From an uncultured Patescibacteria group bacterium (GTDB lineage: Bacteria > Patescibacteriota > Patescibacteriia > UBA2591 > CALHIP01), in the NCBI GenBank assembly GCA_938030745.1, contig CALHIP010000007.1, positions 13,180 through 77,179 on the forward strand: a DNA stretch of 64,000 nt, given 5' to 3'. Shown piece after piece: positions 21,836 through 42,075 of this stretch (its first letter is position 1; every line of letters begins with the position of its first letter). The notes under the pieces are model-generated. The model searched no databases. It was not told the DNA's origin and saw only the letters and a program-made list of their open reading frames with translations. The translations under genes and the position numbers were made by a program.

Positions 21836-21838
21836 AAA

Positions 21839-22487: not shown

Positions 22488-25468
<2,981 letters not shown>

Positions 25469-25511
25469 CCCATATAAGCCTTTATTTTTAAAAATTTAAT
25501 TTTTCTCATTT

Positions 25512-25634
<123 letters not shown>

Positions 25635-26203: not shown

Positions 26204-27487
26204 ATGAGATATATTGCCGATTTTCATCTTCATTCAAAATATTCCCGTGCTACTTCCCAATTAATGGATTTAAAACATTTAGATGAATGGGCAAGATTAA
26301 AAGGAATTCAAATTTTAGGTACTGGTGATTTTACCCATCCAGAATGGTTTAAAGAATTAAAAGAAAAACTAGAGCCTCTTAGTAATGGACTTTTTAAATT
26401 AAAAACCGCTAAAGATTTAGCGGTTTCTTTTATTTTAACAACTGAAGTCTCTTGTATTTATCCAAAAAAAGGTGCTCTTCGTCGGATTCATTTAATTGTT
26501 TTTTTTCCTGATTTTAAATGTGTTGAGAGATTTAATACTCAACTTTCTTGGTCTGGTAATTTAAAAGCTGATGGTCGACCAATTTTAGGTTTAGATGCTA
26601 AAGAAATTTTAAAAATGGCTTTAGATATCTCACCAGATGCCTTAGTTATTCCAGCTCATGTTTGGACGCCTTGGTTTTCAATTTTTGGATCAAAATCTGG
26701 TTTTGATTCAATTGAAGAATGTTTTGATGAGTTAACACCAGAAATTTATGCTATCGAAACAGGCCTTTCAAGTGATCCAGCAATGAATTGGCGATTATCA
26801 AAATTAGATAAAGTAGCAATTATCTCCTCTTCTGATTCTCATTCACTTCAAAATCTAGGTCGAGAAGCAACTGTTTTTGAGTTTTTAAATTATCCAAATT
26901 ATCTTGATATTGTTAAAGCAATTAAAAATAGTTCTATTCTTCAACGACAATTAATGTTAGATCAACCAACAATCGCTTATACTATTGAATTTTTTCCTGA
27001 AGAAGGAAAATATCATTTTGATGGTCATCGATTATGCAATGTTTCTTTTTCACCATCAGAGACAAAGAAAAGAGGTGGTAATTGTCCTGTTTGCGGTAAA
27101 CCTTTAACTATTGGTGTGATGCATCGGGTAGAAGATTTAGCTGATCGTCCAGAAGGATTTATTCCAGAAAAATCTGTTCCTTTCAAAAGTTTAGTTCCTT
27201 TAAGAGAAATCATCGCTGAGGCATTAAATGTAGATAAAAACTCAAAACTAGTAGAAAATGAATACCTTTCTTTAGTAAAAAGAGGAGGTAATGAATTTAA
27301 AATTCTTTTAGATCTAAATGAAGAAGAAATAAAAAAGATTGCTTCAAAAAGGATTGTTGAAGGAATTATTAAAATGAGAAATGGAGAAGTAACAAAAATT
27401 GCTGGTTATGATGGTGTTTATGGCAAAATCAGTGTTTTCGGGAAAAAAGAAGAAAAAAAAGAAAACAAGCAAGGTGTTCTCTTTTAA
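26204..27487 (+). CDS. PHP-domain nuclease of the endonuclease Q (EndoQ / TIGR00375) family with a C-terminal zinc ribbon
   Basis: The N-terminal PHP motif is YIADFHLHSKYSRATSQLM...ILGTGDFTHPEW. Other motifs are SSDSHS, LGREATVFEF and KYHFDGHRLCNV...CPVCGKPLTIGVMHRVEDLADRP. These match the order of conserved EndoQ blocks. Confidence 0.65.
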   Translation: MRYIADFHLHSKYSRATSQLMDLKHLDEWARLKGIQILGTGDFTHPEWFKELKEKLEPLSNGLFKLKTAKDLAVSFILTTEVSCIYPKKGALRRIHLIVFFPDFKCVERFNTQLSWSGNLKADGRPILGLDAKEILKMALDISPDALVIPAHVWTPWFSIFGSKSGFDSIEECFDELTPEIYAIETGLSSDPAMNWRLSKLDKVAIISSSDSHSLQNLGREATVFEFLNYPNYLDIVKAIKNSSILQRQLMLDQPTIAYTIEFFPEEGKYHFDGHRLCNVSFSPSETKKRGGNCPVCGKPLTIGVMHRVEDLADRPEGFIPEKSVPFKSLVPLREIIAEALNVDKNSKLVENEYLSLVKRGGNEFKILLDLNEEEIKKIASKRIVEGIIKMRNGEVTKIAGYDGVYGKISVFGKKEEKKENKQGVLF

Positions 27488-28310: not shown

Positions 28311-29534
28311 TTATAAATTAAAATTTTTCTTATATTTTTCTAATCCCTTCTTTAAAATCATCATTGCTTCTTTCAATTTTTCACAAGATAAAACAAAAGC
28401 AATCCGAAATTCATCTTTTCCTAAACCAGAAGTACTATAAAAACCACTCGCTGGAGCAACTAAAACTGTTTTTCTTTGGTAAGAAAATTTTGTTAGAAGC
28501 CATTGAGCAAAATGATCTGAATCTTTAAGCCAAGGAATTTTAACAATAAGATAAAAAGCACCTTTTGGCTTAACAACAATTGCTTCAGGGATTTTTTTTA
28601 TTTCGGTAAAAACAACATCTCTTCTTTTTTTATATTCAGAGACAATCTTTTTAAGATATTTTTCTGGATTCTCTAAAAGAGGAATGACAGCTAATTGTTC
28701 AACCATTGGCGAAGAAAGTCTGGCTTGAGCAAACTTAATTGCTGCTTCAATAACTTTCTTATTTTTACTTGCTAAAACACCAATTCTTGCTCCACAAGCA
28801 GAAAATCTTTTAGAAACACTATCAAGCAAAACTACTTGCTGAAGAATTTCAGGAAAACTCATCATCGAATAATAATTTTCATTATCATAAACAAATTCGC
28901 GATAAGTCTCATCAGAAAGGATAAAGAGATGATACTTTTTTGCTATTTCAATTATTGTCTTTAATTCAGATTTTTTATAAACAGTACCAGTTGGATTATT
29001 AGGGTTACAAATAATAATCCCCCTTGTTTTTTTGTTAATTTTTTTCTCAATTTCTTTTTGAGTTGGTAAATGGAAACCATTTTCTGCTAATGTTCTAATT
29101 GGTCTTAATTTAATTCCAGTAATTGAAGCATAACCATTATAATTTGTATAAAATGGTTCAAAGACAATTATTTCTTCATTTGGTTGACAAACAGCAGCAA
29201 AAGCAAATAAAATTGCTTCACTTCCACCAGTTGTGACAACTATTTCTGAAAGATCAAAATCAATACCAACACTTTTAAAATATTTCTGCCAAGCTAATTT
29301 TAACTCATTGATTCCATCAGAAGGAGTATAAGCTAAAATTTTTTCCTTAAAATTTCTTATTCTTTGTAAAATCTCTTTTGGCGTTTCTAAATCTGGTTGA
29401 CCAATATGAACTTCAAAAACTTTTATTCCTTTCTCTTTTATTTTTTGGAGAAGTGGAACAAATTTTCTAATTGGTGAAAATTGCGCTTCTTCAGCTCGAG
29501 ATGAGATTTTTATTTTGTTTCTTGTTTTAACCAT
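28311..29534 (-). CDS. PLP-dependent aminotransferase class I/II (aspartate/aromatic aminotransferase-like)
   Basis: A lysine-containing SKRFSACGARIG motif is present. It has the fold-type I size and layout. Confidence 0.8.
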   Translation of the reverse strand: MVKTRNKIKISSRAEEAQFSPIRKFVPLLQKIKEKGIKVFEVHIGQPDLETPKEILQRIRNFKEKILAYTPSDGINELKLAWQKYFKSVGIDFDLSEIVVTTGGSEAILFAFAAVCQPNEEIIVFEPFYTNYNGYASITGIKLRPIRTLAENGFHLPTQKEIEKKINKKTRGIIICNPNNPTGTVYKKSELKTIIEIAKKYHLFILSDETYREFVYDNENYYSMMSFPEILQQVVLLDSVSKRFSACGARIGVLASKNKKVIEAAIKFAQARLSSPMVEQLAVIPLLENPEKYLKKIVSEYKKRRDVVFTEIKKIPEAIVVKPKGAFYLIVKIPWLKDSDHFAQWLLTKFSYQRKTVLVAPASGFYSTSGLGKDEFRIAFVLSCEKLKEAMMILKKGLEKYKKNFNL

Positions 29535-29815
29535 TTTAAATAATTTTTCTCTACTTTATTAATTAACCAAGAAAAGATAGCTGGGATTTGATAAGGATGG
29601 TTTTCTTTAATTATTTTTTCAATTTTTTGATAATTTTTCTTCACTGTTTTAATGATCATCGCCCATTCTCTTGTTTTTTCTATTTTTTTCTTCCACCAAT
29701 ATTGCGAGTTAATTGGCCAATAATTAAGACAAGATGCTAATCTTTCTTTTAAAATTTTTTTAGCCAATTTTTCAGCTGATTTTTTATTAGGAAAGGTTGT
29801 GTAAACAATAATCAT
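29510..29815 (-). CDS. cutA: divalent-cation tolerance protein CutA
   Basis: Conserved blocks are MIIVYTTFPNKKSAEKLAKKIL...ASC and ...HPYQIPAI. It is about 100 aa. Confidence 0.7.
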   Translation of the reverse strand: MIIVYTTFPNKKSAEKLAKKILKERLASCLNYWPINSQYWWKKKIEKTREWAMIIKTVKKNYQKIEKIIKENHPYQIPAIFSWLINKVEKNYLKWLKQETK

Positions 29816-30279
29816 ACTTTTTTATAACCAACTGGAATGATTGCTAAAGGTCTTTGAGATTTTTCTAATTTTAAAATTTGAGAGATTTTATCTTCATCAA
29901 AGGCACCAACCCAACAAGTACCAAGACCTAAAGCAGTTGCTGCTAAAAGTAAATTTTCTGTGGCTGCTGCTGCATCCTGGATTGCATACAAATTTCGACC
30001 ACGTTGGCCATATCTTGAAGCAGTTTTTTCAATATCAGCAACGACAACAATAACAACTGGTGCTTCAGAAATAAAATATTGACCTAAAGCTGCTTCAGCA
30101 ATTTCAATTTTTGTTTTTTGATCACGAATTATTAAAAAATTAGTTGGATAGATAGCGCCAGCTGAAGGTGCCATTTTCCCTGCTTCAATAATTTTTTTAA
30201 TGTCTTTATCAGAAACATCTTTTTGTGAATCAAAACTCCGAACCGAATGTCTTTTTTTAATAACTTGCCAAAAATCCAT
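29812..30279 (-). CDS. nitroreductase-family flavoprotein; an internal Met start was chosen
   Basis: Nitroreductase motifs are KKRHSVRSFD...APSAGA...LGLGTCWVG. Confidence 0.7.
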   Translation of the reverse strand: MDFWQVIKKRHSVRSFDSQKDVSDKDIKKIIEAGKMAPSAGAIYPTNFLIIRDQKTKIEIAEAALGQYFISEAPVVIVVVADIEKTASRYGQRGRNLYAIQDAAAATENLLLAATALGLGTCWVGAFDEDKISQILKLEKSQRPLAIIPVGYKKV

Positions 30280-30283
30280 ATTT

Positions 30284-31021
30284 TTAATAGCCAATAGAGA
30301 GTCTTTCAATTAAAAAATTGGGAAAACCTTTCTTTCTCATTTTTTCTTGAGTTCTGTAATAATCATATTCTATCCGATGGTATTCTAAAGTCAAAGCTTC
30401 ATTGTCAAAGATAATAAAACTTGCTTTTGGATTTCGATCACGTGGTTGGCCAACAGAACCAGGATTGATAATATAGAAAGAATCTTTTTCAAACTTTAAA
30501 AATGCTTTATCTGGCGGAAATCTAAATTGATAAATTTTATTTTCTCTTTTTTCAAAAATTGTTGGGATATGTGAATGGCCAACAAATAAAACTTTTTCTT
30601 TAAAAAGAGTAAAATTTTCTTCAGCCTGATAAATTTCTAAAAGATATTCCCAAATCGGATCACGAAGTGAACCATGGGCAAGGATTATCTCTTTTTCTGG
30701 TTTCAAAGTTAAAGGCAGATTGCTTAAAATTTTTTTATTTTCTTGGGAAAGCTCTGAGGCATTAATTTTTACTGCTTGAGCAGCATAAGGATTAAAATCA
30801 AAAATTGAGATTTTTCCAATAACTGCTAAATCATGATTGCCTACTACAGAAATTATTTTTTTCTTTTTTAATAATTCTACACACTCATTTGGGTTTGGTC
30901 CATAACCGACAATATCTCCTAAATGCCAGATTTTTTTGATTCCCCTTTTTTCTAAATTAAAAAGAACTGCTTGAAAAGCCTCTAAATTTGAATGGACATC
31001 AGCTAAAATTCCTATTTTCAT
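30284..31021 (-). CDS. calcineurin-like metallophosphoesterase
   Basis: Motifs are MKIGILADVHSN, GDIVGYGP, VVGNHD and VGHSH. Confidence 0.7.
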   Translation of the reverse strand: MKIGILADVHSNLEAFQAVLFNLEKRGIKKIWHLGDIVGYGPNPNECVELLKKKKIISVVGNHDLAVIGKISIFDFNPYAAQAVKINASELSQENKKILSNLPLTLKPEKEIILAHGSLRDPIWEYLLEIYQAEENFTLFKEKVLFVGHSHIPTIFEKRENKIYQFRFPPDKAFLKFEKDSFYIINPGSVGQPRDRNPKASFIIFDNEALTLEYHRIEYDYYRTQEKMRKKGFPNFLIERLSIGY

Positions 31022-31034: not shown

Positions 31035-31053
31035 AATCATTTACAGCGGCCGC
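31035..31053 (-). promoter_or_regulatory. 18-bp element ATCATTTACAGCGGCCGC (copy 1 of 2), 14 nt upstream of the phosphoesterase start codon; it contains the GC palindrome GCGGCCGC
   Basis: An identical 18-mer recurs at 35263-35282 upstream of the MFS start codon. Both copies are in the same orientation relative to the downstream gene. Confidence 0.5.
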
Positions 31054-31070: not shown

Positions 31071-31622
31071 TTATTCGGATAATTTTTTTGTGGTAAAAAT
31101 AAAAATTTCTGTTTTTGGATCACGCCAAGCATCAGCTGGTAAACCAGCTTTATAAACACAAAGGCTACTTAAAAATTCTTCTAAATTATAATTGAATTCT
31201 TCTGCTACTTCTGGTAAGAAAACTCCACCTTTAAAACCCTTTTTGATAATTACCCCATGTTTTCCCAACTCTATTTCTTTAGATGGATCTTTTATTTTTC
31301 TCAATGGTGAAATAATTGAAATTTCAATCTTAATTTCTTTTAATTCTTCTAAACTTAAAGGAAAAAAACGAGTATCTTCAAAAGCAGCAGCAATAGCCAT
31401 TTTTGCTACTGCTTCAGCTAATGGATATCTTGGTTCTAAATGACCAATACAACCACGAAGATTACTATCCTTTTTTAAAGTCACAAAAACTGCCATTTTT
31501 TCTTTTAATTTCTCTGGTACTTCAAATTTTGGAATTTCTTTATTTTTTAAATAAAATTCTATTGAATCTCGAGCAATTTTTAATAATAATTTTTTTTCTT
31601 CTTCTTTAAATTCATTTTTCAT
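31071..31622 (-). CDS. AMMECR1-domain protein (AmmeMemoRadiSam system component A-like)
   Basis: The signature is LRGCIGHLEPRYPLAEAVAKMAIAAAFEDTRF. Confidence 0.8.
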   Translation of the reverse strand: MKNEFKEEEKKLLLKIARDSIEFYLKNKEIPKFEVPEKLKEKMAVFVTLKKDSNLRGCIGHLEPRYPLAEAVAKMAIAAAFEDTRFFPLSLEELKEIKIEISIISPLRKIKDPSKEIELGKHGVIIKKGFKGGVFLPEVAEEFNYNLEEFLSSLCVYKAGLPADAWRDPKTEIFIFTTKKLSE

Positions 31623-31631
31623 ACAATTAAA

Positions 31632-32528
31632 TTAATCAGCAAAACGATAAAGACCAAATTTTTTAGCTAAATTAATTGCTTCTTGATATTCTTGATCAGT
31701 AATTGTTCGAGAAAGTTCTTGATAATTAAATGCTTTATAACAAGGCCGATATTGATCCATAATATTTAAGAAAGTATCTTTTGAAATTTCTTCAGCTAAA
31801 AATTTCATAATTTTTTCTGTTCCAGCTAAATTATTTGGTAAAACAAGATGTCGGACAATTAGTCCTTTTTTTGCAATTCCATTTTCAATAATCAAATTAT
31901 TCACTTGGCGATGCATCTCCTTTAATGCTTCTTTTAAAATCTTAAAATAATTTGGCGCTGATGAATATTTTAAAGCTATTTCATCATCACTATATTTTGC
32001 ATCAGGCATATAAATATCAATTATTCCATCTAAAATTTTTAAAGTTTCAACAGAATCATAACCATTTGAATTATAAACTAAGGGAATTTTTAATCCTTTC
32101 TCAATAGCTATTTCTAACCCTTCTAAAATTTGAGGTACTTGAGATGTTGGTGTGACCAAATTAATATTATGACAACCGATTTTTTGTAAATAAATCATCA
32201 TTTCAGCCAATTGATAAGGAGAAACTTCCTCACCATAATCTAATTGAGAAATCTCATAATTTTGACAAAAAACACAAGCCAAATTACAGGAAGTGAAAAA
32301 AATTGTTCCAGAACCATAATTACCAACTAAACATTTTTCTTCACCAAAATGAGGATGAAAAGAAGAGACTTTTGCTTTCCTTCCTAAACGGCAGAACCCT
32401 TTTTCATTTTTTAATCGATTAACATTACATTTTCTCGGACAAACATGACATGGATTTAAAAAAGAAATTGCTTTTTTTATTCTTTTTTTTAATTCTTCTT
32501 TTGAAAGATTAAGATAAGAAGGAAACAT
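31632..32528 (-). CDS. radical SAM enzyme partnered with AMMECR1 (PflA/PflX-like, AmmeMemoRadiSam-type)
   Basis: An N-terminal Cys-rich segment is CHVCPRKCNVN...GFCRLG. The radical SAM cluster is TSCNLACVFCQN (CxxxCxxC). Confidence 0.8.
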   Translation of the reverse strand: MFPSYLNLSKEELKKRIKKAISFLNPCHVCPRKCNVNRLKNEKGFCRLGRKAKVSSFHPHFGEEKCLVGNYGSGTIFFTSCNLACVFCQNYEISQLDYGEEVSPYQLAEMMIYLQKIGCHNINLVTPTSQVPQILEGLEIAIEKGLKIPLVYNSNGYDSVETLKILDGIIDIYMPDAKYSDDEIALKYSSAPNYFKILKEALKEMHRQVNNLIIENGIAKKGLIVRHLVLPNNLAGTEKIMKFLAEEISKDTFLNIMDQYRPCYKAFNYQELSRTITDQEYQEAINLAKKFGLYRFAD

Positions 32529-32530
32529 GT

Positions 32531-32998
32531 TTATAAATAACGATATTTATTTATCTGGTAAATAGCAATGCCAGCAGCAACAGCAACATTTAATGATTCT
32601 TTTTGGCCATACATAGGTAAATAAATAATTTTTTCAGCTCTTTTCAATAAAGATTTTGAAACTCCTTTTATTTCATTACCAACAATTAAAAGCAATGGAA
32701 ATTTTGGTCTGAATTTAGTATATAAAATGCTTTTTTTTGTTTGTTCTAAAGCAACAATATAAAAACCTTCTTTTTTAAGTTTATCAACTATTCGCCAAGG
32801 TTGCCAATGGTGTTCCCAAAAAACAGTTTTTTCTGCTCCTAAAGATACTTTTTTCATTTTCTCTGAATCTGGAGTTCCAGTGATTCCACCTAAAATGATT
32901 TTATCAATACCAGCTGCATCAGCAGTACGGAAAATTGCACCAACATTAAAAAGAGAGCGGATATTATCTAATAAAAGATAAAATTTTTTAGATCTCAT
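32531..32998 (-). CDS. SPOUT-superfamily (SpoU/TrmH-like) RNA 2'-O-methyltransferase, small form
   Basis: Motifs are NIRSLFNVGAIFRTADAAGIDKIIL and LLIVGNEIKGVSK...LPMYG...SLNVAVAAGIAIY. Confidence 0.7.
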   Translation of the reverse strand: MRSKKFYLLLDNIRSLFNVGAIFRTADAAGIDKIILGGITGTPDSEKMKKVSLGAEKTVFWEHHWQPWRIVDKLKKEGFYIVALEQTKKSILYTKFRPKFPLLLIVGNEIKGVSKSLLKRAEKIIYLPMYGQKESLNVAVAAGIAIYQINKYRYL

Positions 32999-33008
32999 TC
33001 TCTCAATT

Positions 33009-34073
33009 TTATTTTAAAATAGATTTTAAAGCTTGAGATTTTTCTGAAGAATTTAATTTTGCTTTACGAATTGCTTTCTCTAAAATAAAAATTGATAAAT
33101 CATATTGTTTTTTATTGATTGGATAAGGTGTACCATCTTTACCACCGTGAGCAAAAGAATATCTGACTGGGTCATGAAAACTCGGTTTAGCTCCATAAAT
33201 TAATTCGGAGATTAAAGCTAAAGCTCTTAAAGTTTTTGGCCCAACTCCTTCATAAGAAACTAATTCCTCATAACTTTTTGGATTTTTCTCATGAGCAGTA
33301 AATAAAATTTTTTGAATTCTTTTCTCAGTATCTGGTTTTAATGGAATCCAATGATATCGAGGCATATTTAAAATTCTAATTTTTTTAAAATCTTTAAGAA
33401 GAGTTTGAAAAGGACCTCGAACAATTTCTGTTGAAACTTCTCTTGTTTTTTTACTTTCTAAAGCAACTAAATTTAAAACTTTACCTTTCCAATCGCAACA
33501 GATAGCTGAATGTGGTTCTTCAACAAAATTTTTTAATTTTTCAGATAGCCAATGATAACGTCTAGCCATTTGAATTTCTGTATTCATCCCTTGCTGAATC
33601 ACTGTCCAATTACCATTTTTTGTGAAAATAAAAGTATGATGATAAATTTGAAAACCATCCTGTAAGCAAGAATTATCAACTTTAGCTACCATTTTACTAG
33701 CATAAATAAGTTTTGGTGTAAAATCTAATGAAAATTTTTGGCCATATTCTTCAATTTCAATTGGTGCTTTTCTTGAAGTTTTTCCTTTACCACCAACAAC
33801 AAAAAGCCCTAAAGATTTTTCTGTTCCTTTCAAAGCTTCTTTAATTGCTCCACAGACAGTAGTACTTAAACCAGAAGAATGCCAATCAAAACCTAAGACA
33901 CAGCCAAAAGATTGAAACCAATAAGGATCGGAAAGCCGACGTAAAACCTCCTCTTGAGAAAATTCATAAACCATTGCTTCGATAATTGCTCGAGCCAATC
34001 TTTTCATTCTTCTGAAAAGCCAAGCTGGTATTGTTCCCCAATGGAGAGGTAAATTAGCGATTCCTGTTCTCAT
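33009..34073 (-). CDS. conserved hypothetical protein with a C-terminal helix-hairpin-helix-like motif, possibly of the DUF763 type; it is not MEMO1
   Basis: A HhH-like motif is YEGVGPKTLRALALISE. No MEMO1 HAG/HS motifs are present. The family assignment is unverified. Confidence 0.45.
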   Translation of the reverse strand: MRTGIANLPLHWGTIPAWLFRRMKRLARAIIEAMVYEFSQEEVLRRLSDPYWFQSFGCVLGFDWHSSGLSTTVCGAIKEALKGTEKSLGLFVVGGKGKTSRKAPIEIEEYGQKFSLDFTPKLIYASKMVAKVDNSCLQDGFQIYHHTFIFTKNGNWTVIQQGMNTEIQMARRYHWLSEKLKNFVEEPHSAICCDWKGKVLNLVALESKKTREVSTEIVRGPFQTLLKDFKKIRILNMPRYHWIPLKPDTEKRIQKILFTAHEKNPKSYEELVSYEGVGPKTLRALALISELIYGAKPSFHDPVRYSFAHGGKDGTPYPINKKQYDLSIFILEKAIRKAKLNSSEKSQALKSILK

Positions 34074-34079: not shown

Positions 34080-35252
34080 TTATTTTACCATTTTCTTCTC
34101 AGTAGTAAAAAGCATTAATAAAATTGCTAGAATTGAAGTAAAAAAAGCAAAAAGAAAAACAGTTCTTGGACCGAAAAATTGCCAGAAGAAGCCAGCTAAA
34201 GATGAGGCAGCTAAAAATACTAAACCAGAAATCATTTGGAAAAATCCTAAAGTTTGACCTTTAAATAAAGGATGAGAAAATTCAGAAATGAAAGCAATTT
34301 GACTCGGCCTTAATGTTGCTTTGGCAAAACCAAATAAAACTAAAAGAGGAATAATTAAAGAATTTTTAAAACCAAAAACAAAACCTAAAACTGAAAGACT
34401 CCAAAAAAGATAAGCTAAAATAATTATCTTTTTTTTACCAATTTTATCAGCCAAACGAGAGATAGGATAAGCCATCAACATCATACTCATTGTCATGATT
34501 AAATAAAGAATTGGTATTGAAGTAACTGACCAGCCATTTTCTCTGGCATAGATAAGTAAAAATGAATAACTAAAAAATCCTAAAGCAAACAAAAGATTGG
34601 CAAAAAAGAAAATTTTTAAAGAGGGATGAAATTTACCAGGTGAAAATTTTAAAAAGGAGGGTTGAACTGGTAAAGCTCTTTCTTTGACCAAAGTGAAAAT
34701 TAAATAGGCACCAATTAAAGAAGGTAAGCCAGCAATAAAAAACATTTCCCGCGGCTTAAGGAATCTAATTAAAATAATGGCTGAAATAATTCCGAAAACT
34801 GCACCTAAATGATCCATTGCATCTAAAAAACCAATCGTTTGGGTTTTAAAACGATGATCAGCTATATCTAAAGCTAAAATATCTCTTGGTGTTTCACGAA
34901 TCTTACCAGCTCGATCTAAAATTTTAAAAGGAAAAAGTAGCCCCCAAAAATAAGTGATGGAATAGCCTAAACGAGCTAATCCACTTATTAAATAACCAAG
35001 CCAGATAAATGGTTTTCTTTTACCTAATTTATCAGAGAGCCAACCAGCAAAAGTTTGAGAAAAAGAAACAACTGCTTCACCGATTCCGTCAATTAGACCT
35101 AAAACACTCATTGGTGCTTTTAAAATCTCTCTGACAAAAACTGGCCAGATTGAATGACCAATTTCTGCTCCCAAATCGTTTAAAAAAGAAGTCGAGCCAA
35201 ATACAAGAATTGTTTTCTTTCTTCGATTATTAAAATCTTTTATTTTTTCCAT
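34080..35252 (-). CDS. MFS-family transporter
   Basis: There are about 12 predicted hydrophobic helices. An MFS loop motif (GWLSDKLGKRKP) is present. Confidence 0.8.
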   Translation of the reverse strand: MEKIKDFNNRRKKTILVFGSTSFLNDLGAEIGHSIWPVFVREILKAPMSVLGLIDGIGEAVVSFSQTFAGWLSDKLGKRKPFIWLGYLISGLARLGYSITYFWGLLFPFKILDRAGKIRETPRDILALDIADHRFKTQTIGFLDAMDHLGAVFGIISAIILIRFLKPREMFFIAGLPSLIGAYLIFTLVKERALPVQPSFLKFSPGKFHPSLKIFFFANLLFALGFFSYSFLLIYARENGWSVTSIPILYLIMTMSMMLMAYPISRLADKIGKKKIIILAYLFWSLSVLGFVFGFKNSLIIPLLVLFGFAKATLRPSQIAFISEFSHPLFKGQTLGFFQMISGLVFLAASSLAGFFWQFFGPRTVFLFAFFTSILAILLMLFTTEKKMVK

Positions 35253-35262: not shown

Positions 35263-35282
35263 ATATCATTTACAGCGGCCGC
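35263..35282 (-). promoter_or_regulatory. copy 2 of the ATCATTTACAGCGGCCGC element, 13 nt upstream of the MFS start codon and just downstream of the rtcA stop
   Basis: The 18-mer is identical to copy 1 at 31035-31053. Confidence 0.5.
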
Positions 35283-35311: not shown

Positions 35312-36322
35312 TTATTCTTTAAAAATTTTATTTTTTTCTTTATCTATTTTAATTTTAATATCTAAAAATTTCTCTAAAAGCCAAATATGAGTTAAAAGAT
35401 GATTAGTAATTTTTGAAACAGTAAAAGCAAATGGTTTTTTACTAATAGCTAAATAAAGGACAATTTGGTCAGCTAAATAAGGATCGATTACTTTTTCTGA
35501 TTGATAATAATCAGAAAATTGTTGAGCTACTTCTTGACCTACTTTCTCAGCTGGCTTACCTTTTTCACCTAAAGAGGAAAAACCAGCTAAGATATTTTCA
35601 AATTTTACTTTCAAAAAAACAAAAGTTCCAGCTGATAATGCTTCTACCCTTTCTGCTAATATATTTATTCCTGAAAAATTTTTAAGAAAAGATTGAAGAG
35701 CATTTTTCTGACGTTCGGCAATAGAAAAAGGTAAATTTGCGACAACTGATAAACCAGAAATTTCTTCTATTTTTCCTCTTTCTAAAAAATCACTTGCCAC
35801 TAATTTCTGTATTGGCTGAACAAACAATCTTATTCTTCCTCCTCCTTTTGGATAAAAACCATATTTTTCTAATTTTGCTTCTGCTTTTATTCCTAATTTT
35901 TCTATCATTGGTAAAAAAACTTCGGAAAAATAATGAAAAGGCGGAGCCAACGGATTATGAGTTCCACCAACAATTAAAACTTCAGAAGGATGTTTTGAAA
36001 AAGAAAGAGGTAATAAAATAGTCTGAGCTACTAATGTTGTTGAACCAGCTGTACCAATATCAAATTCAAATCTACCAAATTTTATTTTTTTTGGTTCAAA
36101 TCTTAAAATTTTTGAGCCAATTTTTGCACCAGAAACTTTTGCCTGAGAAATTTCCTCAGCTGCTTTAACAGCAACTAAATGTTGAGCCTGAAGTCCTGGC
36201 TTTTTTCTTTTTGCCCGAATATTGAAAATTTCAATTGCTTGAGCAGCTAAAACTGATAAAGAAAGAGAAGTTCTTAAAATTTGCCCACCACCCTCACCAT
36301 AACTTCCATCTATTCTTAACAT
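35312..36322 (-). CDS. rtcA: RNA 3'-terminal phosphate cyclase
   Basis: The N-terminus is MLRIDGSYGEGGGQILRTSLSLS. It has the size expected of RtcA. Confidence 0.8.
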   Translation of the reverse strand: MLRIDGSYGEGGGQILRTSLSLSVLAAQAIEIFNIRAKRKKPGLQAQHLVAVKAAEEISQAKVSGAKIGSKILRFEPKKIKFGRFEFDIGTAGSTTLVAQTILLPLSFSKHPSEVLIVGGTHNPLAPPFHYFSEVFLPMIEKLGIKAEAKLEKYGFYPKGGGRIRLFVQPIQKLVASDFLERGKIEEISGLSVVANLPFSIAERQKNALQSFLKNFSGINILAERVEALSAGTFVFLKVKFENILAGFSSLGEKGKPAEKVGQEVAQQFSDYYQSEKVIDPYLADQIVLYLAISKKPFAFTVSKITNHLLTHIWLLEKFLDIKIKIDKEKNKIFKE

Positions 36323-36347: not shown

Positions 36348-37853
36348 TTAGAAATTTTTTGTTTTATTCTTTCTGCCTCTTTTAATAACTCTCACCATCC
36401 CTTTATTAGCGTCAACCTCAACAAAATCCCCATCTTTTAAAACCTTAGTAGCAATTTTGGTTCCAATGATACAAGGAATGCCGAGTTCACGGGAAACAAT
36501 CGCTGCATGACAGGTTATTCCGCCTTCATCAGTGACAATAGCAATACATTTTTTAAGAGCTGGAGCAAAATCGGGCGTTGTCATTGGAGTAACTAAAATT
36601 TCTCCTCTTTTTATATTTTTAATTTCTTCTTTAGTTTTTATGACTTTTACTCTACCAGAAATTTTTCCTGCCGAAGCAACTACTCCTTTGATTACCTTTT
36701 CTACTTGAGAAGACTTCTCTTCCAAGACTAAATAAGGATTCATTTCTTTTCCGAGATAAATTTTAGATTTTCCATTTTTGATATCAAAAACACAAAGTTT
36801 AGTTCTCGCTTTTAATATTTTTAATATTTTTTTATCAACTTTTTTTTCCTGCCAGATTTCCTTCATTTCATGAGGAAGAATATATCGGACTAATTGAAAA
36901 TGAATTTTTAGTCTCTTTGCCATTTCTTTGATTAAGATTTCTGTTTTAAAATTAAAATAAGAATTATAATATTTTCTTATATCTTGAAGAATAGCAGCAT
37001 CTTGTAAGGCAAAAATGATAGACTTTTCTTTTTGAGTAAGTTTAAGATTTTTCATTAAATTCTTTTGATCAATTTTTAGTTTTTTATAAAAATTATTTTT
37101 CTCCTTTATCTCTTCTTTTAAATTAACTTTTTTAGATATTTTTTTTATTTCTCTTAAATAGTCTTTTTCTTTTTTAACCTTCGGTCCCCGATAGTCATAA
37201 ATCATAAAACCAAATTTATTAACTAGATTTCTTATTTTTATTTTTATCTTTGAAAAAGGAATATTTTTAATTTTTTGAGCTAATTTTAATATCTCAATTT
37301 CTTCCTGAAGAATAAAAGATGGTTTAGAAGGGGTAATGAGGATGTTTAGAATTTTATTGTATTCCCGCCTGTTAATTTTTCTCTGTTGTAAAATTTTTTT
37401 CACCTCTCGAAAAATGGCCTTTTCTCCCCACAGCCAGATAGGAAAAGAAAAAAAACAAAAAAGACGGTAGTCTTCTACTAACAGGGAATAAATTTTGAAT
37501 ATTTTTTTATCAGAAAATTTACTTAATTTTTTTCCTTCTAGTATTTTTAAATCTCTTACCATCTTTTTAGCATATTTTTTCGTTTTTGAAATTAGATAAG
37601 AAGTAAATCGAAAATTCTTTGAGATTTTCTTTAAAATCGCTCGACCAAAATTGTTTAAATGGCGAAAACGAACAGAGGCACTAGCCCAATCGCCTCTTAA
37701 AATATTAATTTGTTCTATTGGAGGAGCACCATAAATTTTAGTCATTTGTGGGGTAGAGGAATAATAATATATTAAATCTAAAATAAAAGGGTGAACCTTA
37801 CTGGCCCTTTTTCTAAATTGATACCAGTTTTGAGGATTTATTTTTTTTATCAT
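36348..37853 (-). CDS. protein with a C-terminal PEP-utilizing-enzyme mobile (phosphohistidine) domain and an uncharacterized 400-aa N-terminal region
   Basis: The C-terminal segment VTPMTTPDFAPALKKCIAIVTDEGGITCHAAIVSRELGIPCIIG is the swivel phosphohistidine domain of PEP synthase / PPDK-like enzymes. Confidence 0.6.
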   Translation of the reverse strand: MIKKINPQNWYQFRKRASKVHPFILDLIYYYSSTPQMTKIYGAPPIEQINILRGDWASASVRFRHLNNFGRAILKKISKNFRFTSYLISKTKKYAKKMVRDLKILEGKKLSKFSDKKIFKIYSLLVEDYRLFCFFSFPIWLWGEKAIFREVKKILQQRKINRREYNKILNILITPSKPSFILQEEIEILKLAQKIKNIPFSKIKIKIRNLVNKFGFMIYDYRGPKVKKEKDYLREIKKISKKVNLKEEIKEKNNFYKKLKIDQKNLMKNLKLTQKEKSIIFALQDAAILQDIRKYYNSYFNFKTEILIKEMAKRLKIHFQLVRYILPHEMKEIWQEKKVDKKILKILKARTKLCVFDIKNGKSKIYLGKEMNPYLVLEEKSSQVEKVIKGVVASAGKISGRVKVIKTKEEIKNIKRGEILVTPMTTPDFAPALKKCIAIVTDEGGITCHAAIVSRELGIPCIIGTKIATKVLKDGDFVEVDANKGMVRVIKRGRKNKTKNF

Positions 37854-37879
37854 GAAAATACGAAATAAATGTCAGATTT

Positions 37880-38776
37880 TTATTCAGCAATTTTTTTCTC
37901 AAATTCTTCGCCTTCTTTTATTAATTCATCGATCAATTCTGGTGTTATCTTTATTGTCTCCTCTTTCCCTTCTTCTGAAGAATAATGAATTAAAATTTCT
38001 TTTCCACCTAAAATTTCTAAAGAAAAACCTTCTGTTTCTTTAAAACCACCTTTATATTTTTCTACCCATTTTTCTAAACTCTCTTTTCCTTTAACTTTTT
38101 CAATGACTTTAGCCAAAAAAGATTCACCAATACTTTGATGAGTTACTAAATATCTTTCTAATTGGTTACCATAAGGAGCATATTTTTCTGGATTTTTTTC
38201 AACAATATTTTCAAAAACAGTACCAACAGTTAAATACTTTTTAATAATTTTAGCCACATTAGTAGCAGCGCGTGTCCAACAAGTGGAATTTTTGTCTTTT
38301 TTTTCTAAAATTAATTTGTCACTCTCTTCAACCAAAAATTTAACTACCTCTTTTCTTTTTACTGCATTAGTCAATTCTTCATAAGGAACAAAATCCAATC
38401 CTTTTTCTTCAATAAATTTTTTAACCCTTCCTGGTCCAAGTTTATATTCTTTATCAAGTTCTTCTTGAATTTTCTCTTGAATTTCTTCAAAACTTGCTTC
38501 CGGTGTGAAATATTTATAGAACAAAGCTTCTAATCCTGTTTGTAAAGTTCTTTTTCTTGGACTGCCAACAACTAATCCTACTTCTGGTTGTAGGTTAATT
38601 TCTTCACCTTTTTTGCGGGCTTGAGTTCTACCTACTTCTGATAATAGAACTTCATAATCAGACTGACCAGGTAGTTTCTCTGCCTTTTCTCCATGGCGAA
38701 GAACATGAAGAATTACTTTACTTTTGGATTCTTTAATTTCTTTTGATTCAAAAAATTTTTCACCTTCTTTATTCAT
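37880..38776 (-). CDS. histidine-phosphatase-superfamily protein (phosphoglycerate-mutase-like branch) with a long C-terminal extension
   Basis: The catalytic RHG motif (LHVLRHGEKAE) lies near the N-terminus. Confidence 0.55.
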   Translation of the reverse strand: MNKEGEKFFESKEIKESKSKVILHVLRHGEKAEKLPGQSDYEVLLSEVGRTQARKKGEEINLQPEVGLVVGSPRKRTLQTGLEALFYKYFTPEASFEEIQEKIQEELDKEYKLGPGRVKKFIEEKGLDFVPYEELTNAVKRKEVVKFLVEESDKLILEKKDKNSTCWTRAATNVAKIIKKYLTVGTVFENIVEKNPEKYAPYGNQLERYLVTHQSIGESFLAKVIEKVKGKESLEKWVEKYKGGFKETEGFSLEILGGKEILIHYSSEEGKEETIKITPELIDELIKEGEEFEKKIAE

Positions 38777-39948: not shown

Positions 39949-40227
39949 TTACTCGATTATCTTATAAACAATATCTCCTTCTTTGACTGGTTGATCTACT
40001 TTCAAACCAATTGATTGGCCTTTGCTTGCTTTTTCAACATTTTTGTGTTCAATCTGCATTGAAGAGACAGTTTGAGTAAATTCCTGACCATGACCAACAA
40101 TTTTGATTGTGTCTCCAACTTTAATTTCATCACTTAATTCAACAACTGCAACTGAAATTTTGTTGAAATAGTGAGTAATTTTTCCAATTTGAACTTCTGG
40201 CATAAATTTATATTTATTTTTATTCAC
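39949..40227 (-). CDS. standalone EF-Tu domain-2-like beta-barrel mini-protein of 92 aa; its start overlaps the rtcB stop
   Basis: GKITHYFNKISVAVVELSDEIKVGDTIKIVG ... QSIGLKVDQPVKEGDIVYK resembles the GTP_EFTU_D2 barrel of EF-Tu/IF2/SelB. It overlaps rtcB by 8 nt. Confidence 0.5.
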   Translation of the reverse strand: MNKNKYKFMPEVQIGKITHYFNKISVAVVELSDEIKVGDTIKIVGHGQEFTQTVSSMQIEHKNVEKASKGQSIGLKVDQPVKEGDIVYKIIE

Positions 40228-41662
40228 CTTTAATAACTGCTAAAGGTATAAGTTTAGCTACTTTTTTTGATAAACCTGCTTTATGAACAACATCAACAAC
40301 CTCATCAATATTTTTATATGCCTCTGGTGCTTCTTCAGCTAAGCCTTTTAATGACCAACATTTAACAATAATTCCTTTTGCTTGTAATTTTTTAATTATT
40401 TCCTGACCAGAGATTGATCGAATTGCTGCATGTCTAGACATTGTTCGACCAGCTCCATGGGTGGTAGAATAAAATGCTTCTTCTCCTTGGCTAGTTCCGA
40501 CTAAAACATATGAAGCAGTTCCCATTGAGCCAGGAATTAAAACTGGCTGGCCAACCTCCCGATATCTTTGAGGAATCTCTGGATGATGAGGAGGAAAGGC
40601 TCTGGTTGAACCCTTTCGATGCATTGCTACTTCTGTTTCTTTACCATCAATAATATATTTTTCTTTTTTAATAATATTGTGAGCGACATCGTATAATAAT
40701 TGCAAAGAACTTTTTTCACCAAAAATACTTTTCCAAGCCTTTCTAACAAAATAAGTAATCATTTGACGATTTGCCCAGGCATAATTTGCTGCCGAAGCTG
40801 AAGCAGATAAACCTCTTTGACCTTCATTAGAATTAAAGGGTACACAGGCAAACTCTCGATCAGGAACTCTTATTTTATATTTCTCCATCAATCTCATAAA
40901 TTCATTTATATAATCAGTTGCTACTTGATGACCAAGTCCACGACTACCACAATGAATCATTATAACAATTTGATCTTTGAATAACCCAAAAACTTGAGCT
41001 ACTTCTTCATTAAAAATTTCTTCTACTTTTTGAATTTCAAGAAAATGATTTCCTGAACCAAGTGTTCCTACTTGATCGCGACCTCTATTTTTCGCTTTAA
41101 TTGAAACAAAAGAAGCATCAGCCCATTCTAATCTACCATTTGCCTCACAGTTTTCGACATCCTCTTTTTCACCATAACCTTTCTCAACTAAATATCTTGC
41201 TCCACCTTCCAAAATTTTATCAATCTGTTCAATTGAGAGTTTAATTTGCCTACCTCTTCCTAATCCAGATGGAACTTCCTTTTGAATCTCAGTTGCTAAT
41301 TTTTCTAAATAAGGTTTTGTTTCCTTTTCAGAATATTCTGAAAGGAGTAATCTTACTCCACAATTTATATCATAACCTTGCATTCCCGGAGAAATTATTC
41401 CGTCAGAAATCCTTATCGCTGCTACTCCACCAATTGGACTGGAATAACCTTCATGACAATCTGGCATGGCGATTCCGTATTTTTGGATTCCTGGTAAAGT
41501 ACAGAGATTTATTAATTGATAAAGTGATTTATCCCTGAAAACATCTTCTAACATTTTCTCTGAAACATAAATTCTTGCTGGCACTCGCATGTCAGCTCGA
41601 AAGCTTTTAGGGATTTCCCATAAATAATCATTAATTTTTTTAAAATCTTTTTTAGAGATCAT
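40220..41662 (-). CDS. rtcB: RNA-splicing ligase RtcB (3'-phosphate / 5'-hydroxyl RNA ligase)
   Basis: Motifs are MPDCHEGYSSPIGGV, HNAGR-type motifs (HGAGRTMSR), and the metal-binding histidines characteristic of RtcB. Confidence 0.9.
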   Translation of the reverse strand: MISKKDFKKINDYLWEIPKSFRADMRVPARIYVSEKMLEDVFRDKSLYQLINLCTLPGIQKYGIAMPDCHEGYSSPIGGVAAIRISDGIISPGMQGYDINCGVRLLLSEYSEKETKPYLEKLATEIQKEVPSGLGRGRQIKLSIEQIDKILEGGARYLVEKGYGEKEDVENCEANGRLEWADASFVSIKAKNRGRDQVGTLGSGNHFLEIQKVEEIFNEEVAQVFGLFKDQIVIMIHCGSRGLGHQVATDYINEFMRLMEKYKIRVPDREFACVPFNSNEGQRGLSASASAANYAWANRQMITYFVRKAWKSIFGEKSSLQLLYDVAHNIIKKEKYIIDGKETEVAMHRKGSTRAFPPHHPEIPQRYREVGQPVLIPGSMGTASYVLVGTSQGEEAFYSTTHGAGRTMSRHAAIRSISGQEIIKKLQAKGIIVKCWSLKGLAEEAPEAYKNIDEVVDVVHKAGLSKKVAKLIPLAVIKGE

Positions 41663-42075
41663 ACATCGAAAACAACAATAAGAATAAATTTATCCTTTTC
41701 CTTTTTAAAAGAAAATTCATACCAGGTTACTCCTTTAATTTCCGTTGTAAATCTTTTAACTTTTTGACCGAAAATTTCTCCTTCTAATTTTTTCTCCGTA
41801 GATTTTTTTATTTTTACTTTTTCATAAAATGAATCATTTAAATCCATTTGATAAACTAATTCAGCTAAAAAATTGAAAATTAAATTTTCAAAATTTTCTC
41901 CTTCAATTTTAAAAGGTGTAACAATTTCTTCTTTTAAAAGTTCTGGTCGAGTTCCTTCTTTGATTGCTAACAAAATATTATTTAAAATTTCTTCTAAATT
42001 TTTACCCCAAACTTTAATTTTAAGATCAGCTGGGTGTTCTAAAATCTCATAATTTTTTGAGGCCAAGTTTTTCAT
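41659..42075 (-). CDS. archease (RtcB activator / chaperone)
   Basis: The N-terminal motif is YEILEHPADLKIKVWG (consensus YE.LEHTAD). It is about 138 aa. It lies immediately upstream of rtcB and overlaps it by 4 nt. Confidence 0.75.
   Translation of the reverse strand: MKNLASKNYEILEHPADLKIKVWGKNLEEILNNILLAIKEGTRPELLKEEIVTPFKIEGENFENLIFNFLAELVYQMDLNDSFYEKVKIKKSTEKKLEGEIFGQKVKRFTTEIKGVTWYEFSFKKEKDKFILIVVFDV

What the first reader, a model, noticed from the sequence alone, without database searches (positions are those of the whole stretch)
31071..34073. AMMECR1 plus radical SAM pair without MEMO1, fused into an operon with a SPOUT methyltransferase and an HhH-motif hypothetical protein
The AmmeMemoRadiSam triad is normally AMMECR1 + MEMO1 + a PflA-like radical SAM enzyme. 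Here the AMMECR1 protein (31071-31622) and the radical SAM enzyme (31632-32528, CxxxCxxC plus an N-terminal Cys-rich segment) are present. No MEMO1 is found in the window. The next two genes, overlapping by 1-10 nt, are a small SPOUT RNA methyltransferase and a 354-aa protein with a C-terminal helix-hairpin-helix motif. The substrate of the AmmeMemoRadiSam system is unknown. This context argues for a nucleic-acid (RNA) substrate.
Basis: partly seen in the sequence, partly recalled or inferred. Interest (0 to 1): 0.55.

Follow-up and report, generated by a model that had tools for sequence, protein, structure and literature searches.

The report
Orphan AMMECR1 beside look-alike radical SAM
In a tiny-genome (Patescibacteria-like) bacterium, an AMMECR1 gene sits next to a radical SAM gene that only resembles its usual partner, and because this four-gene row is a gene-order quirk of one narrow lineage it says little about what the AMMECR1 system acts on.

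Summary
The four ORFs are real. They lie on the minus strand, 2-10 nt apart, and do not overlap. They encode AMMECR1 (passes TIGR04335), a radical SAM enzyme, a minimal SpoU/TrmH 2'-O-methyltransferase and a full-length DUF763 protein with a weak HhH motif. No Memo gene is in the window.

The radical SAM enzyme is not the AmmeMemoRadiSam enzyme. It scores 21 bits against TIGR04337 (cut-off 220), while a fragment of a true member next to a Memo-AMMECR1 fusion scores 252. It belongs to a large, highly conserved sister family ('PflX-like'). Where that family has a recurrent neighbour, it is archease plus RtcB, not AMMECR1.

The arrangement is not conserved:
- Of 80 loci anchored on this radical SAM family, one close relative has AMMECR1, SpoU or DUF763 nearby.
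- Of 80 species-level loci anchored on DUF763, none has AMMECR1.

The four genes lie inside a string of at least 12 co-directional genes, in a genome where the median same-strand gap is 7.5 nt. So this is lineage-specific synteny, not a Memo-less variant system.

The neighbourhood is RNA-centred (RtcA, RtcB, archease, SpoU), and SpoU-AMMECR1 adjacency persists in sister lineages. This gives only weak support for an RNA substrate, an idea already published in 2007.

The parts
31071..31622 (-). AMMECR1 protein (183 aa), an 'orphan' A component of the AmmeMemoRadiSam type
   Evidence: PF01871 184.9 bits; TIGR04335 185.6 bits (cut-off 99); TIGR00296 164.9 bits. Closest solved structure is PH0010 (1vaj), E=3.9e-38. 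The RGCIG and DxRF motifs are present in the sequence.
31632..32528 (-). PflA-like radical SAM enzyme (298 aa) of the 'PflX-like' family; not the AmmeMemoRadiSam radical SAM enzyme
   Evidence: PF04055 54 bits; TIGR04337 21.2 bits against a cut-off of 220. Invariant C27/C30/C34/C46 and C81/C85/C88. More than 8000 homologues, with the top 120 at 66-100% identity. The best fold match of the AlphaFold model (pLDDT 69) is E. coli PFL-activating enzyme 8fo0, E=3.3e-4.
32531..32998 (-). Minimal SpoU/TrmH-class RNA 2'-O-ribose methyltransferase (155 aa, catalytic domain only)
   Evidence: PF00588 119.9 bits. The best NCBIfam match is the RlmB C-terminal domain at 112.8 bits, below its cut-off. The closest solved structure is Aquifex TrmH 1zjr, E=7.7e-22.
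33009..34073 (-). DUF763 protein (354 aa) with a C-terminal helix-hairpin-helix; function unknown
   Evidence: PF05559 455.5 bits over positions 1-319 of 319; HhH match 17 bits. It is 50-62% identical to homologues in unrelated phyla and has many invariant polar motifs. The model has pLDDT 83. No PDB match by fold, by sequence or by profile.
34080..35252 (-). MFS transporter, 6 nt upstream of DUF763 in the same string
   Evidence: PF07690 126 bits. Syntenic in L084 and L163.
35312..36322 (-). RtcA, RNA 3'-terminal phosphate cyclase
   Evidence: TIGR03399 392 bits (cut-off 250).
30284..31021 (-). Calcineurin-like metallophosphoesterase, next gene downstream of AMMECR1
   Evidence: PF12850 81.7 bits and PF00149 57 bits.
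28311..30309 (-). Tail of the same co-directional string: nitroreductase, CutA and an aminotransferase, whose families are unrelated to RNA
   Evidence: PF00881 and PF03091; PF00155 in the L001 gene table. These ORFs overlap by 4-26 nt.
36348..38776 (-). Head of the string: a PEP-utilising-domain protein and a histidine-phosphatase-like protein
   Evidence: PF00391 90.7 bits; PF00300 26 bits.
40220..42075 (-). Archease (41659-42075) and RtcB RNA ligase (40220-41662), about 7.7 kb upstream of the radical SAM gene
   Evidence: RtcB PF01139 547.7 bits; Archease PF01951 in L001. In other lineages these two genes lie immediately downstream of the PflX-like radical SAM gene.
35265..35282 (-). Copy 1 of the 18-nt exact repeat GCGGCCGCTGTAAATGAT, in the 59-nt gap before the MFS gene
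   Evidence: None of 100 shuffles gave two matches.
31036..31053 (-). Copy 2 of the same 18-nt repeat, in the 49-nt gap before the metallophosphoesterase gene
   Evidence: The repeat is absent from the syntenic relatives L084 and L163.

Best explanation
This is lineage-specific gene order in a streamlined, Patescibacteria-like genome. It is not a Memo-less variant of the AmmeMemoRadiSam system.

The AMMECR1 gene is a stand-alone ('orphan') A component. The adjacent radical SAM gene belongs to a sister subfamily of PflA-like enzymes ('PflX-like'). That subfamily shares the N-terminal Cys4 motif and the cluster motif with the true AmmeMemoRadiSam enzyme, which is why the two look alike. It has its own distribution and its own recurrent partners, archease and the RNA ligase RtcB.

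The four genes are probably co-transcribed, as part of a string of at least 12 genes. This is inferred from the 2-10 nt gaps and the absence of a convincing terminator. In this genome, however, such packing is the default and carries little functional information.

Each product most likely does its family's own job (inferred, not shown here):
- SpoU: SAM-dependent 2'-O-methylation of a tRNA or rRNA ribose.
- Radical SAM enzyme: reductive SAM cleavage to a 5'-deoxyadenosyl radical, acting on an unknown substrate connected with RtcB/archease RNA ligation.
- AMMECR1: its conserved-cysteine chemistry, on an unknown and possibly RNA substrate.
- DUF763: an HhH-mediated nucleic-acid transaction.

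The region as a whole is a loose cluster of nucleic-acid maintenance genes, reshuffled between relatives.
For: **The radical SAM enzyme is the wrong family.**
- TIGR04337 gives 21.2 bits against a cut-off of 220.
- Two family relatives score 27 bits. A 222-aa fragment of a true member, next to a Memo-AMMECR1 fusion in L170, scores 251.7 bits.
- BLASTP between the window enzyme and that fragment gives 26% identity over 167 aa, E=0.01.
- The shared N-terminal motif is shown.

**The arrangement is not conserved.**
- Of 80 metagenome loci anchored on this radical SAM family (54-84% identity), only L084 (84%) has AMMECR1, SpoU or DUF763.
- In 80 species-representative loci anchored on DUF763: AMMECR1 0, SpoU 1, PflX-like radical SAM 3.
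- Of eight AMMECR1-anchored contexts, only the syntenic L163 has this radical SAM gene.
- In L165 and L167 (AMMECR1 64-65% identical), SpoU stays near AMMECR1 but the radical SAM and DUF763 genes are absent.

**The radical SAM family has a different partner.**
- Archease then RtcB lie immediately downstream in 15 of 46 loci that have at least 2 kb of downstream sequence. These fall into 11 clusters at 80% identity.
- RtcB lies within the flanks in 16 of 80 radical-SAM-anchored loci, against 1 of 80 DUF763-anchored loci (Fisher p=1.3e-4).

**Tight packing is the norm.**
- The median same-strand gap is 7.5 nt.
- The string also contains an MFS transporter, a nitroreductase, CutA and an aminotransferase.
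- Promoter-like and terminator-like sites are no more frequent than in shuffled sequence.

**Memo is absent from the window, and DUF763 is not Memo**.
Against: - The four-gene order is kept across the close clade. This is verified in L084 and L163, and inferred for about five more contigs from matching contig lengths. The gaps are tiny, so co-expression is likely.
- SpoU-AMMECR1 proximity survives rearrangement in three sub-lineages.
- The neighbourhood is enriched for RNA-end enzymes (RtcA, RtcB, archease).
- The radical SAM family itself has an RNA-ligase link.
- The two radical SAM subfamilies share a Cys4 motif, so a similar mechanism, or even substitution of one for the other, is conceivable.
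- Only a 78-kb contig is available. Whether Memo or a TIGR04337 enzyme exists elsewhere in this genome is unknown.
- The surveys reach 10 kb on each side, and each kept only the best 80 loci.
Confidence: 0.7

Rival explanations
1. The region is a coherent RNA healing and modification module. RtcA, DUF763, SpoU, the PflX-like radical SAM enzyme, AMMECR1 and the phosphoesterase would act on the same RNA (for example a damaged or newly spliced tRNA), together with the archease and RtcB genes upstream. The string would then be a functional operon, and the reader's RNA inference would be essentially right.
For: - RtcA (TIGR03399, 392 bits) lies two genes upstream, and archease plus RtcB lie about 6 kb upstream.
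- The radical SAM family is linked to archease-RtcB elsewhere.
- SpoU is closest to tRNA Gm18 TrmH.
- SpoU-AMMECR1 adjacency is seen in L165 and L167.
- DUF763 lies divergent from or near RtcA in five Dehalococcoidia loci.
- Relatives carry a ThiI/NFACT-R RNA-binding protein and a LigD_N phosphoesterase in the same region.
- Balaji & Aravind (2007) predicted an RNA base modification for AMMECR1.
Against: - All the supporting synteny comes from one related group, so it counts as about one observation.
- An MFS transporter, a nitroreductase, CutA and an aminotransferase are interleaved in the same string.
- The DUF763-anchored and radical-SAM-anchored surveys show no general link to AMMECR1 or SpoU.
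- The other recurrent neighbours of DUF763 point as much to DNA repair: a PD-(D/E)XK nuclease, PolX and an EndoQ-like protein.
Confidence: 0.17
2. This is a two-component, Memo-less AmmeMemoRadiSam variant. The PflX-like radical SAM enzyme would have replaced the TIGR04337 enzyme by non-orthologous, paralogous displacement and would work directly with AMMECR1.
For: - There is a 9-nt gap between the two genes.
- The two families share the N-terminal CxxCPxxC..GxC motif and the CNLxCVFCQNxxISQ motif, with 30% identity over 110 aa.
- The AMMECR1 protein is 48-57% identical to AMMECR1 domains fused to Memo.
- The pair is conserved in the close clade.
Against: - Only 1 of 80 loci anchored on the radical SAM family has AMMECR1.
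- Sister lineages keep AMMECR1 with no radical SAM gene within 7 kb on either side. L171 has one 3 kb away on the opposite strand, but it is RlmN-like.
- The radical SAM family is conserved at about 60-70% identity across bacteria and likely archaea, whatever the AMMECR1 context. This implies a function of its own.
Confidence: 0.08
3. The block is a mobile or defence island, delimited by the two 18-nt direct repeats.
For: An exact 18-nt direct repeat brackets the MFS-DUF763-SpoU-rSAM-AMMECR1 block. A weak DDE transposase fragment lies about 4 kb upstream.
Against: - The same block sits in the same place in relatives that lack the repeats (L084, L163).
- There are no PADLOC hits.
- No integrase or transposase lies in the block.
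- GC content is uniform at about 0.29.
Confidence: 0.02

Closest known systems
AmmeMemoRadiSam system (TIGR04335 AMMECR1-like A, TIGR04336 Memo-like B, TIGR04337 radical SAM)
   Same: The AMMECR1 protein passes TIGR04335 and keeps the RGCxG and DxRF motifs. The adjacent enzyme is PflA-like and shares the N-terminal Cys4 and cluster motifs with TIGR04337 members.
   Different: The radical SAM enzyme fails TIGR04337 (21 bits against 220). There is no Memo in the window. The adjacency is restricted to one clade. A true triad, used as a positive control, was seen in L170: a TIGR04337 radical SAM gene plus a Memo-AMMECR1 fusion.
Pyruvate formate-lyase activating enzyme and other glycyl-radical-enzyme activases (PflA; PDB 8fo0, 3c8f)
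   Same: PflA is the best structural match (E=3.3e-4, TM-scores 0.47 and 0.55) and the best sequence-profile match. The two share the CxxxCxxC motif and have a similar size.
   Different: All activase equivalog models score far below their cut-offs (16-27 bits). This enzyme has an extra invariant N-terminal Cys4 motif. No glycyl-radical enzyme gene was seen nearby. The recurrent neighbours are archease and RtcB.
TrmH/SpoU class of SPOUT RNA 2'-O-methyltransferases (for example Aquifex TrmH 1zjr, RlmB 1gz0)
   Same: Full SpoU_methylase domain (119.9 bits). The closest solved relatives are tRNA Gm18 and rRNA Gm methyltransferases.
   Different: It has the catalytic domain only (155 aa), with no N-terminal substrate-binding extension. 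It scores below every equivalog cut-off, so the target nucleotide cannot be assigned.
RtcB-archease-RtcA RNA repair and ligation gene clusters
   Same: All three genes lie within about 11 kb of the finding. The radical SAM family lies immediately upstream of archease-RtcB in 15 other loci.
   Different: Here the radical SAM gene is not adjacent to RtcB. No RtcR-type regulator was seen. Unrelated genes are interleaved.
DUF763 (PF05559)
   Same: Full-length member (455 bits).
   Different: There is nothing to compare functionally, because the family is uncharacterised. It is not Memo-like or LigB-like, and it has no PDB fold match.

Membership tests
AmmeMemoRadiSam system | A component: AMMECR1-family protein above the TIGR04335 cut-off | tested here: met
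   185.6 bits against a cut-off of 99.
AmmeMemoRadiSam system | B component: Memo-family protein (PF01875 / TIGR04336) encoded with it | tested here: not met
   No ORF scanned has a Memo hit. This covers every ORF of 180 aa or more outside the rRNA genes. phmmer with the Memo parts of fusion proteins found nothing at E<=10. The rest of the genome is not available.
AmmeMemoRadiSam system | Radical SAM component above the TIGR04337 cut-off | tested here: not met
   21.2 bits against a cut-off of 220. The positive control, a fragment from L170, scores 251.7 bits.
AmmeMemoRadiSam system | Conserved co-localisation of the components across lineages | tested here: not met
   1 of 80 radical-SAM-anchored loci has AMMECR1. 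Only the syntenic relative among 8 AMMECR1 contexts has this radical SAM gene.
Radical SAM superfamily | CxxxCxxC cluster motif and a PF04055 match | tested here: met
   C81/C85/C88 are invariant. PF04055 scores 54 bits against a cut-off of 29.5.
Glycyl-radical-enzyme activases (PflA/PflC/NrdG) | Equivalog-level sequence match | tested here: not met
   NrdG2 27.5 bits (cut-off 131), PFLA 16.2 bits (cut-off 232), PFLE_PFLC 17.2 bits (cut-off 174).
Glycyl-radical-enzyme activases (PflA/PflC/NrdG) | A cognate glycyl-radical enzyme gene | tested here: not met
   No such domain appears among the window ORFs scanned or among the recurrent neighbours. The whole genome is not available.
SPOUT / SpoU-TrmH 2'-O-methyltransferases | SpoU_methylase (trefoil-knot) domain above the Pfam cut-off | tested here: met
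   119.9 bits against a cut-off of 29.7. Matches TrmH 1zjr at E=7.7e-22.
SPOUT / SpoU-TrmH 2'-O-methyltransferases | Assignment to a specific equivalog (RlmB, TrmH, TrmL, TrmJ) | tested here: not met
   All are below their cut-offs: RlmB 112.8 (cut-off 160), TrmH 72.4 (227), TrmL 37 (191).
DUF763 (PF05559) | Full-length match above the gathering score | tested here: met
   455.5 bits against a cut-off of 35.5, covering model positions 1-319 of 319.
Memo / LigB-like fold (as a possible identity for the 354-aa protein) | Sequence or fold similarity to Memo | tested here: not met
   No Pfam Memo hit. Foldseek of a pLDDT-83 model against the PDB gave no match at E<0.001. A profile search against PDB sequences found nothing.
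Operon (co-transcription of the four genes) | A shared transcript | not testable with these tools
   The only evidence is indirect: 2-10 nt gaps and no above-background promoter-like or terminator-like signal.

The most novel reading that the evidence does not exclude
The PflX-like radical SAM family would be an unrecognised accessory of RtcB/archease RNA ligation. In this Patescibacteria clade it would have been brought together with RtcA, DUF763, a minimal TrmH-like methyltransferase and an orphan AMMECR1 into one RNA healing and modification module. The locus would then give a first functional handle on three orphan families (AMMECR1, DUF763, PflX-like radical SAM) as RNA-acting enzymes.
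Probability: 0.15. Interest if true: 0.65.

Novelty: new member of a known kind. Interest (0 to 1): 0.25.

Why it matters
As framed, the finding would have offered a natural 'minimal' AmmeMemoRadiSam system with an RNA context, bearing on a long-standing orphan system that has human homologues (AMMECR1, MEMO1). The evidence shows it does not. The radical SAM enzyme is a paralogue from another family, and the context is local synteny.

What remains useful:
1. A caution that PflA-like radical SAM genes next to AMMECR1 must be typed against TIGR04337 before a system is called.
2. Evidence that AMMECR1 persists as a stand-alone gene in several bacterial lineages, without Memo or a radical SAM gene nearby.
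3. Two leads for orphan families: a gene order of PflX-like radical SAM, then archease, then RtcB, which I did not find described in the searchable literature; and a very conserved DUF763 protein with no fold match.

Tried and rejected
**Ideas tested and rejected**
- DUF763 as a diverged Memo. Rejected on the Pfam, Foldseek-PDB and profile-PDB results.
- Defence or mobile island. Rejected: no PADLOC hits, the same block is present in relatives without the repeats, and GC content is flat.
- N-terminal fusions of the radical SAM enzyme in long ORFs (L107, L140, L115). They carry no extra Pfam domain and are probably stop-to-stop artefacts. One real DUF488-radical SAM fusion exists, P0075.
- The 348-aa radical SAM gene near AMMECR1 in L171. 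It turned out to be RlmN-like and is irrelevant.
- Promoter and terminator scans to delimit an operon. The counts were no higher than in shuffled sequence.

**Searches that returned nothing useful**
- Literature searches for DUF763/PF05559, COG1313, COG1415, PflX, AmmeMemoRadiSam, and RtcB+archease+radical SAM gave nothing functional.
- The RaSEA (archaeosine) lead for the radical SAM family could not be checked, because the relevant paper gave no family information.


Full report
**Observation.** The four ORFs exist at the stated coordinates, all on the minus strand.
- Profile searches give AMMECR1 (PF01871 184.9 bits; TIGR04335 185.6 bits, cut-off 99).
- They give a radical SAM protein (PF04055 54 bits).
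- They give a 155-aa SpoU_methylase domain (119.9 bits).
- They give a full-length DUF763 (PF05559 455.5 bits) with a sub-threshold HhH match.
- The genes are separated by 9, 2 and 10 nt and do not overlap.
- GC content is about 29%, and sources name the nearest homologues 'Patescibacteria group bacterium'. The window is therefore most likely from a candidate-phyla-radiation MAG.

**Memo.** Pfam scans gave other assignments for 49 of the ORFs of at least 100 aa, including every ORF of 180 aa or more outside the rRNA genes. I also searched with the Memo portions of ten Memo-AMMECR1 fusion proteins (found) against all six-frame ORFs. This gave no hit even at E<=10. 'No Memo in the window' therefore holds. 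The rest of the genome is not available.

**The radical SAM enzyme is not the AmmeMemoRadiSam enzyme.**
- It scores 21.2 bits against TIGR04337 (cut-off 220), and only over the N-terminal motif region.
- Two members of its own family, P0056 and L093, score 27 bits.
- As a positive control I used locus L170. There, a gene lying directly upstream of a Memo-AMMECR1 fusion is split into two ORFs, which score 119 and 251.7 bits against the same model.
- BLASTP between the window enzyme and that true member gives 26% identity over 167 aa, E=0.01.
- The two families share an N-terminal CxxCPxxC..GxC motif and the CNLxCVFCQNxxISQ cluster motif. This explains why a reader working by eye took one for the other.
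- The window enzyme belongs to a very large and very conserved family. More than 8000 hits were scored, and the top 120 are 66-100% identical. JGI labels the family 'putative pyruvate formate lyase activating enzyme'.
- Its AlphaFold model (pLDDT 69) best matches E. coli PFL-activating enzyme (8fo0, E=3.3e-4).
- All seven motif Cys are invariant.

**Is the arrangement conserved?** I ran two anchored surveys with 10-kb flanks, scoring six-frame ORFs by phmmer with the window's proteins.

| Anchor | Loci | Result |
|---|---|---|
| DUF763, GTDB species representatives | 80, across many phyla | AMMECR1 0, SpoU 1, PflX-like radical SAM 3, RtcA 5 |
| Radical SAM family, metagenome contigs (54-84% identity) | 80 | AMMECR1, SpoU and DUF763 together in one locus only |

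- That one locus is L084, the closest relative. It has the identical order RtcA-MFS-DUF763-SpoU-rSAM-AMMECR1-phosphoesterase-nitroreductase-CutA.
- Eight contexts anchored on AMMECR1 homologues agree:
  - L163 (72% identical) is fully syntenic.
  - L165/L166 and L167/L168 (64-65%) keep SpoU beside AMMECR1, or one gene away, but have no radical SAM or DUF763 gene.
  - L169, L171, L173 and L174 (55-57%) have a solitary AMMECR1.
  - L170 (48%) has the canonical triad.
- The four-gene row is therefore confined to one narrow clade. It is verified in two contigs and inferred for about five more from matching contig lengths.

**Is tight spacing informative here?** No.
- The four genes lie within a co-directional string of at least 12 genes, from 38776 to 28311. 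The string also encodes an MFS transporter, a nitroreductase, CutA and an aminotransferase.
- Across the window, the median gap between same-strand neighbours is 7.5 nt, and 68% of gaps are 12 nt or less.
- Promoter-like and terminator-like sites are no more frequent than in shuffled sequence.
- Co-transcription is plausible, but it is not evidence of a shared pathway in this genome.

**What the radical SAM family does associate with.**
- Clustering the neighbours of the 80 radical-SAM-anchored loci gave RtcB and archease as the top recurrent families. Both lie immediately downstream on the same strand (Pfam confirmation).
- The order rSAM-archease-RtcB occurs in 15 of the 46 loci with at least 2 kb of downstream sequence. 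These form 11 clusters at 80% identity, with GC 0.40-0.58.
- Seven radical-SAM-anchored loci carry a methanogen-type seryl-tRNA synthetase just upstream of the radical SAM gene. L129, one of the RtcB-linked loci, is one of them. At least some of these loci are therefore probably archaeal.
- RtcB lies within the flanks of 16 of 80 radical-SAM-anchored loci, against 1 of 80 DUF763-anchored loci (Fisher p=1.3e-4).
- In the window, archease and RtcB lie about 7.7 kb upstream (40220-42075), and RtcA lies two genes upstream of DUF763.
- The region is therefore RNA-centred, and the radical SAM enzyme has an RNA-ligase connection of its own. That connection is independent of AMMECR1.

**DUF763.**
- It is 50-62% identical between unrelated phyla and has many invariant polar motifs: FDWHSSG, GGKGxxSR, QQGMN..ARRYHW and FAHGGKDGxPYP. 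The HhH sequence is GVGPKT.
- A confident model (pLDDT 83, pTM 0.80) has no PDB fold match at E<0.001. Sequence and profile searches of the PDB are empty.
- It is therefore not a diverged Memo.
- Its recurrent neighbours are weak and mixed: a PD-(D/E)XK nuclease in 8 of 80 loci, PCMT in 6, RtcA in 5, PolX in 4 and an EndoQ-like protein in 2. This is compatible with DNA or RNA repair.

**Known context.** Balaji & Aravind (2007, PMC2034487) proposed from gene neighbourhoods that AMMECR1 catalyses an RNA base modification together with a radical SAM enzyme and a dioxygenase. The searchable literature holds nothing functional on DUF763 or on this radical SAM family.

**Verdict.**
The genes and the absence of Memo are real. 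The 'system' identity of the radical SAM enzyme is not.
- The best explanation (confidence 0.7) is lineage-specific synteny that places an orphan AMMECR1 gene beside a paralogous PflA-like radical SAM gene, inside a loosely RNA-oriented and frequently reshuffled gene string.
- The main rival (0.17) is a genuine RNA healing and modification module.
- A paralogous displacement that yields a two-component system is unlikely (0.08).
- A mobile or defence island is very unlikely (0.02).
- Interest is low to moderate. The main value is the correction, plus two leads on orphan families.

Noticed in passing
window 35265-35282 and 31036-31053 (minus strand): An exact 18-nt direct repeat, GCGGCCGCTGTAAATGAT, occurs only twice in the window. 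It sits in the only two intergenic gaps longer than 40 nt within the string between RtcA and the aminotransferase gene, 12-14 nt upstream of the MFS and metallophosphoesterase start codons. The two copies therefore bracket MFS-DUF763-SpoU-rSAM-AMMECR1. None of 100 shuffles gave two matches. The repeat is absent from the syntenic relatives L084 and L163, where those genes abut. It may be a species-specific promoter or operator.
   Followed up: partly
Loci L093, L099, L104, L107, L110, L113, L115, L117, L119, L124, L129, L148, L152, L153, L159; window 40220-42075: The PflX-like radical SAM family is followed immediately by archease (absent only in L113) and RtcB in 15 of 46 loci with enough downstream sequence. 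These form 11 clusters at 80% identity. Seven radical-SAM-anchored loci have a methanogen-type SerRS upstream, so at least some are probably archaeal. I found no description of this link in the searchable literature.
   Followed up: partly
window 33009-34073; loci L003-L082: DUF763 is unusually conserved (50-62% identity across phyla) and has many invariant polar motifs. Its confident model has no PDB fold match. Its recurrent neighbours are a PD-(D/E)XK nuclease (8 of 80 loci), PCMT (6), RtcA (5, all Chloroflexota/Dehalococcoidia; adjacent and divergent in L027 and L062), PolX (4) and an EndoQ-like protein (2).
   Followed up: partly
window 26204-27487 (+): A 427-aa PHP-domain protein carries the MJ0043_C domain and a CPVCGKPL zinc-finger-like motif. 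From memory it resembles endonuclease Q. Its homologues recur within 10 kb of the radical SAM, DUF763 or AMMECR1 genes in many Patescibacteria-like loci (L002, L084, L087, L163, L165, L167, L170). They lie directly downstream of DUF763 in L011 and L018.
   Followed up: partly
L165 6494-7549; L167 5794-7552: In sister lineages the minimal SpoU gene stays adjacent to AMMECR1, or one gene away from it, without the radical SAM or DUF763 genes. It is preceded by an unannotated gene of about 100 aa, and in L167 directly by a ThiI/NFACT-R-domain protein as well. In L165 that protein lies further upstream, with a peptidase and an AMP-binding gene in between.
   Followed up: partly
L170 4191-6867 and 10845-11975: This is a canonical AmmeMemoRadiSam locus: a TIGR04337 radical SAM gene split into two ORFs, plus a Memo-AMMECR1 fusion. 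A DUF763 gene lies 4 kb downstream and an EndoQ-like gene lies upstream. The taxon of GCA_012974965.1 was not determined.
   Followed up: no
protein P0075: One homologue of the radical SAM enzyme is fused to an N-terminal DUF488 domain.
   Followed up: no
window 6432-7229 (-): A second, small (265-aa) radical SAM protein has weak similarity to spore photoproduct lyase and DUF5131. It lies next to a tRNA-Glu gene.
   Followed up: no
window 22492-25631 (+): 23S and 5S rRNA genes are preceded by three tRNA genes (Arg, Ala, Leu at 21678-21920). No 16S rRNA gene is in the window, so the rRNA operon appears to be split.
   Followed up: no
window 39029-39331 (-) / L001 3198-3500: A 100-aa fragment with a weak DDE_Tnp_IS1595 match lies between RtcB and the histidine-phosphatase gene. 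In relative L163, that position holds a ThiI/NFACT-R gene. This suggests a local replacement.
   Followed up: no
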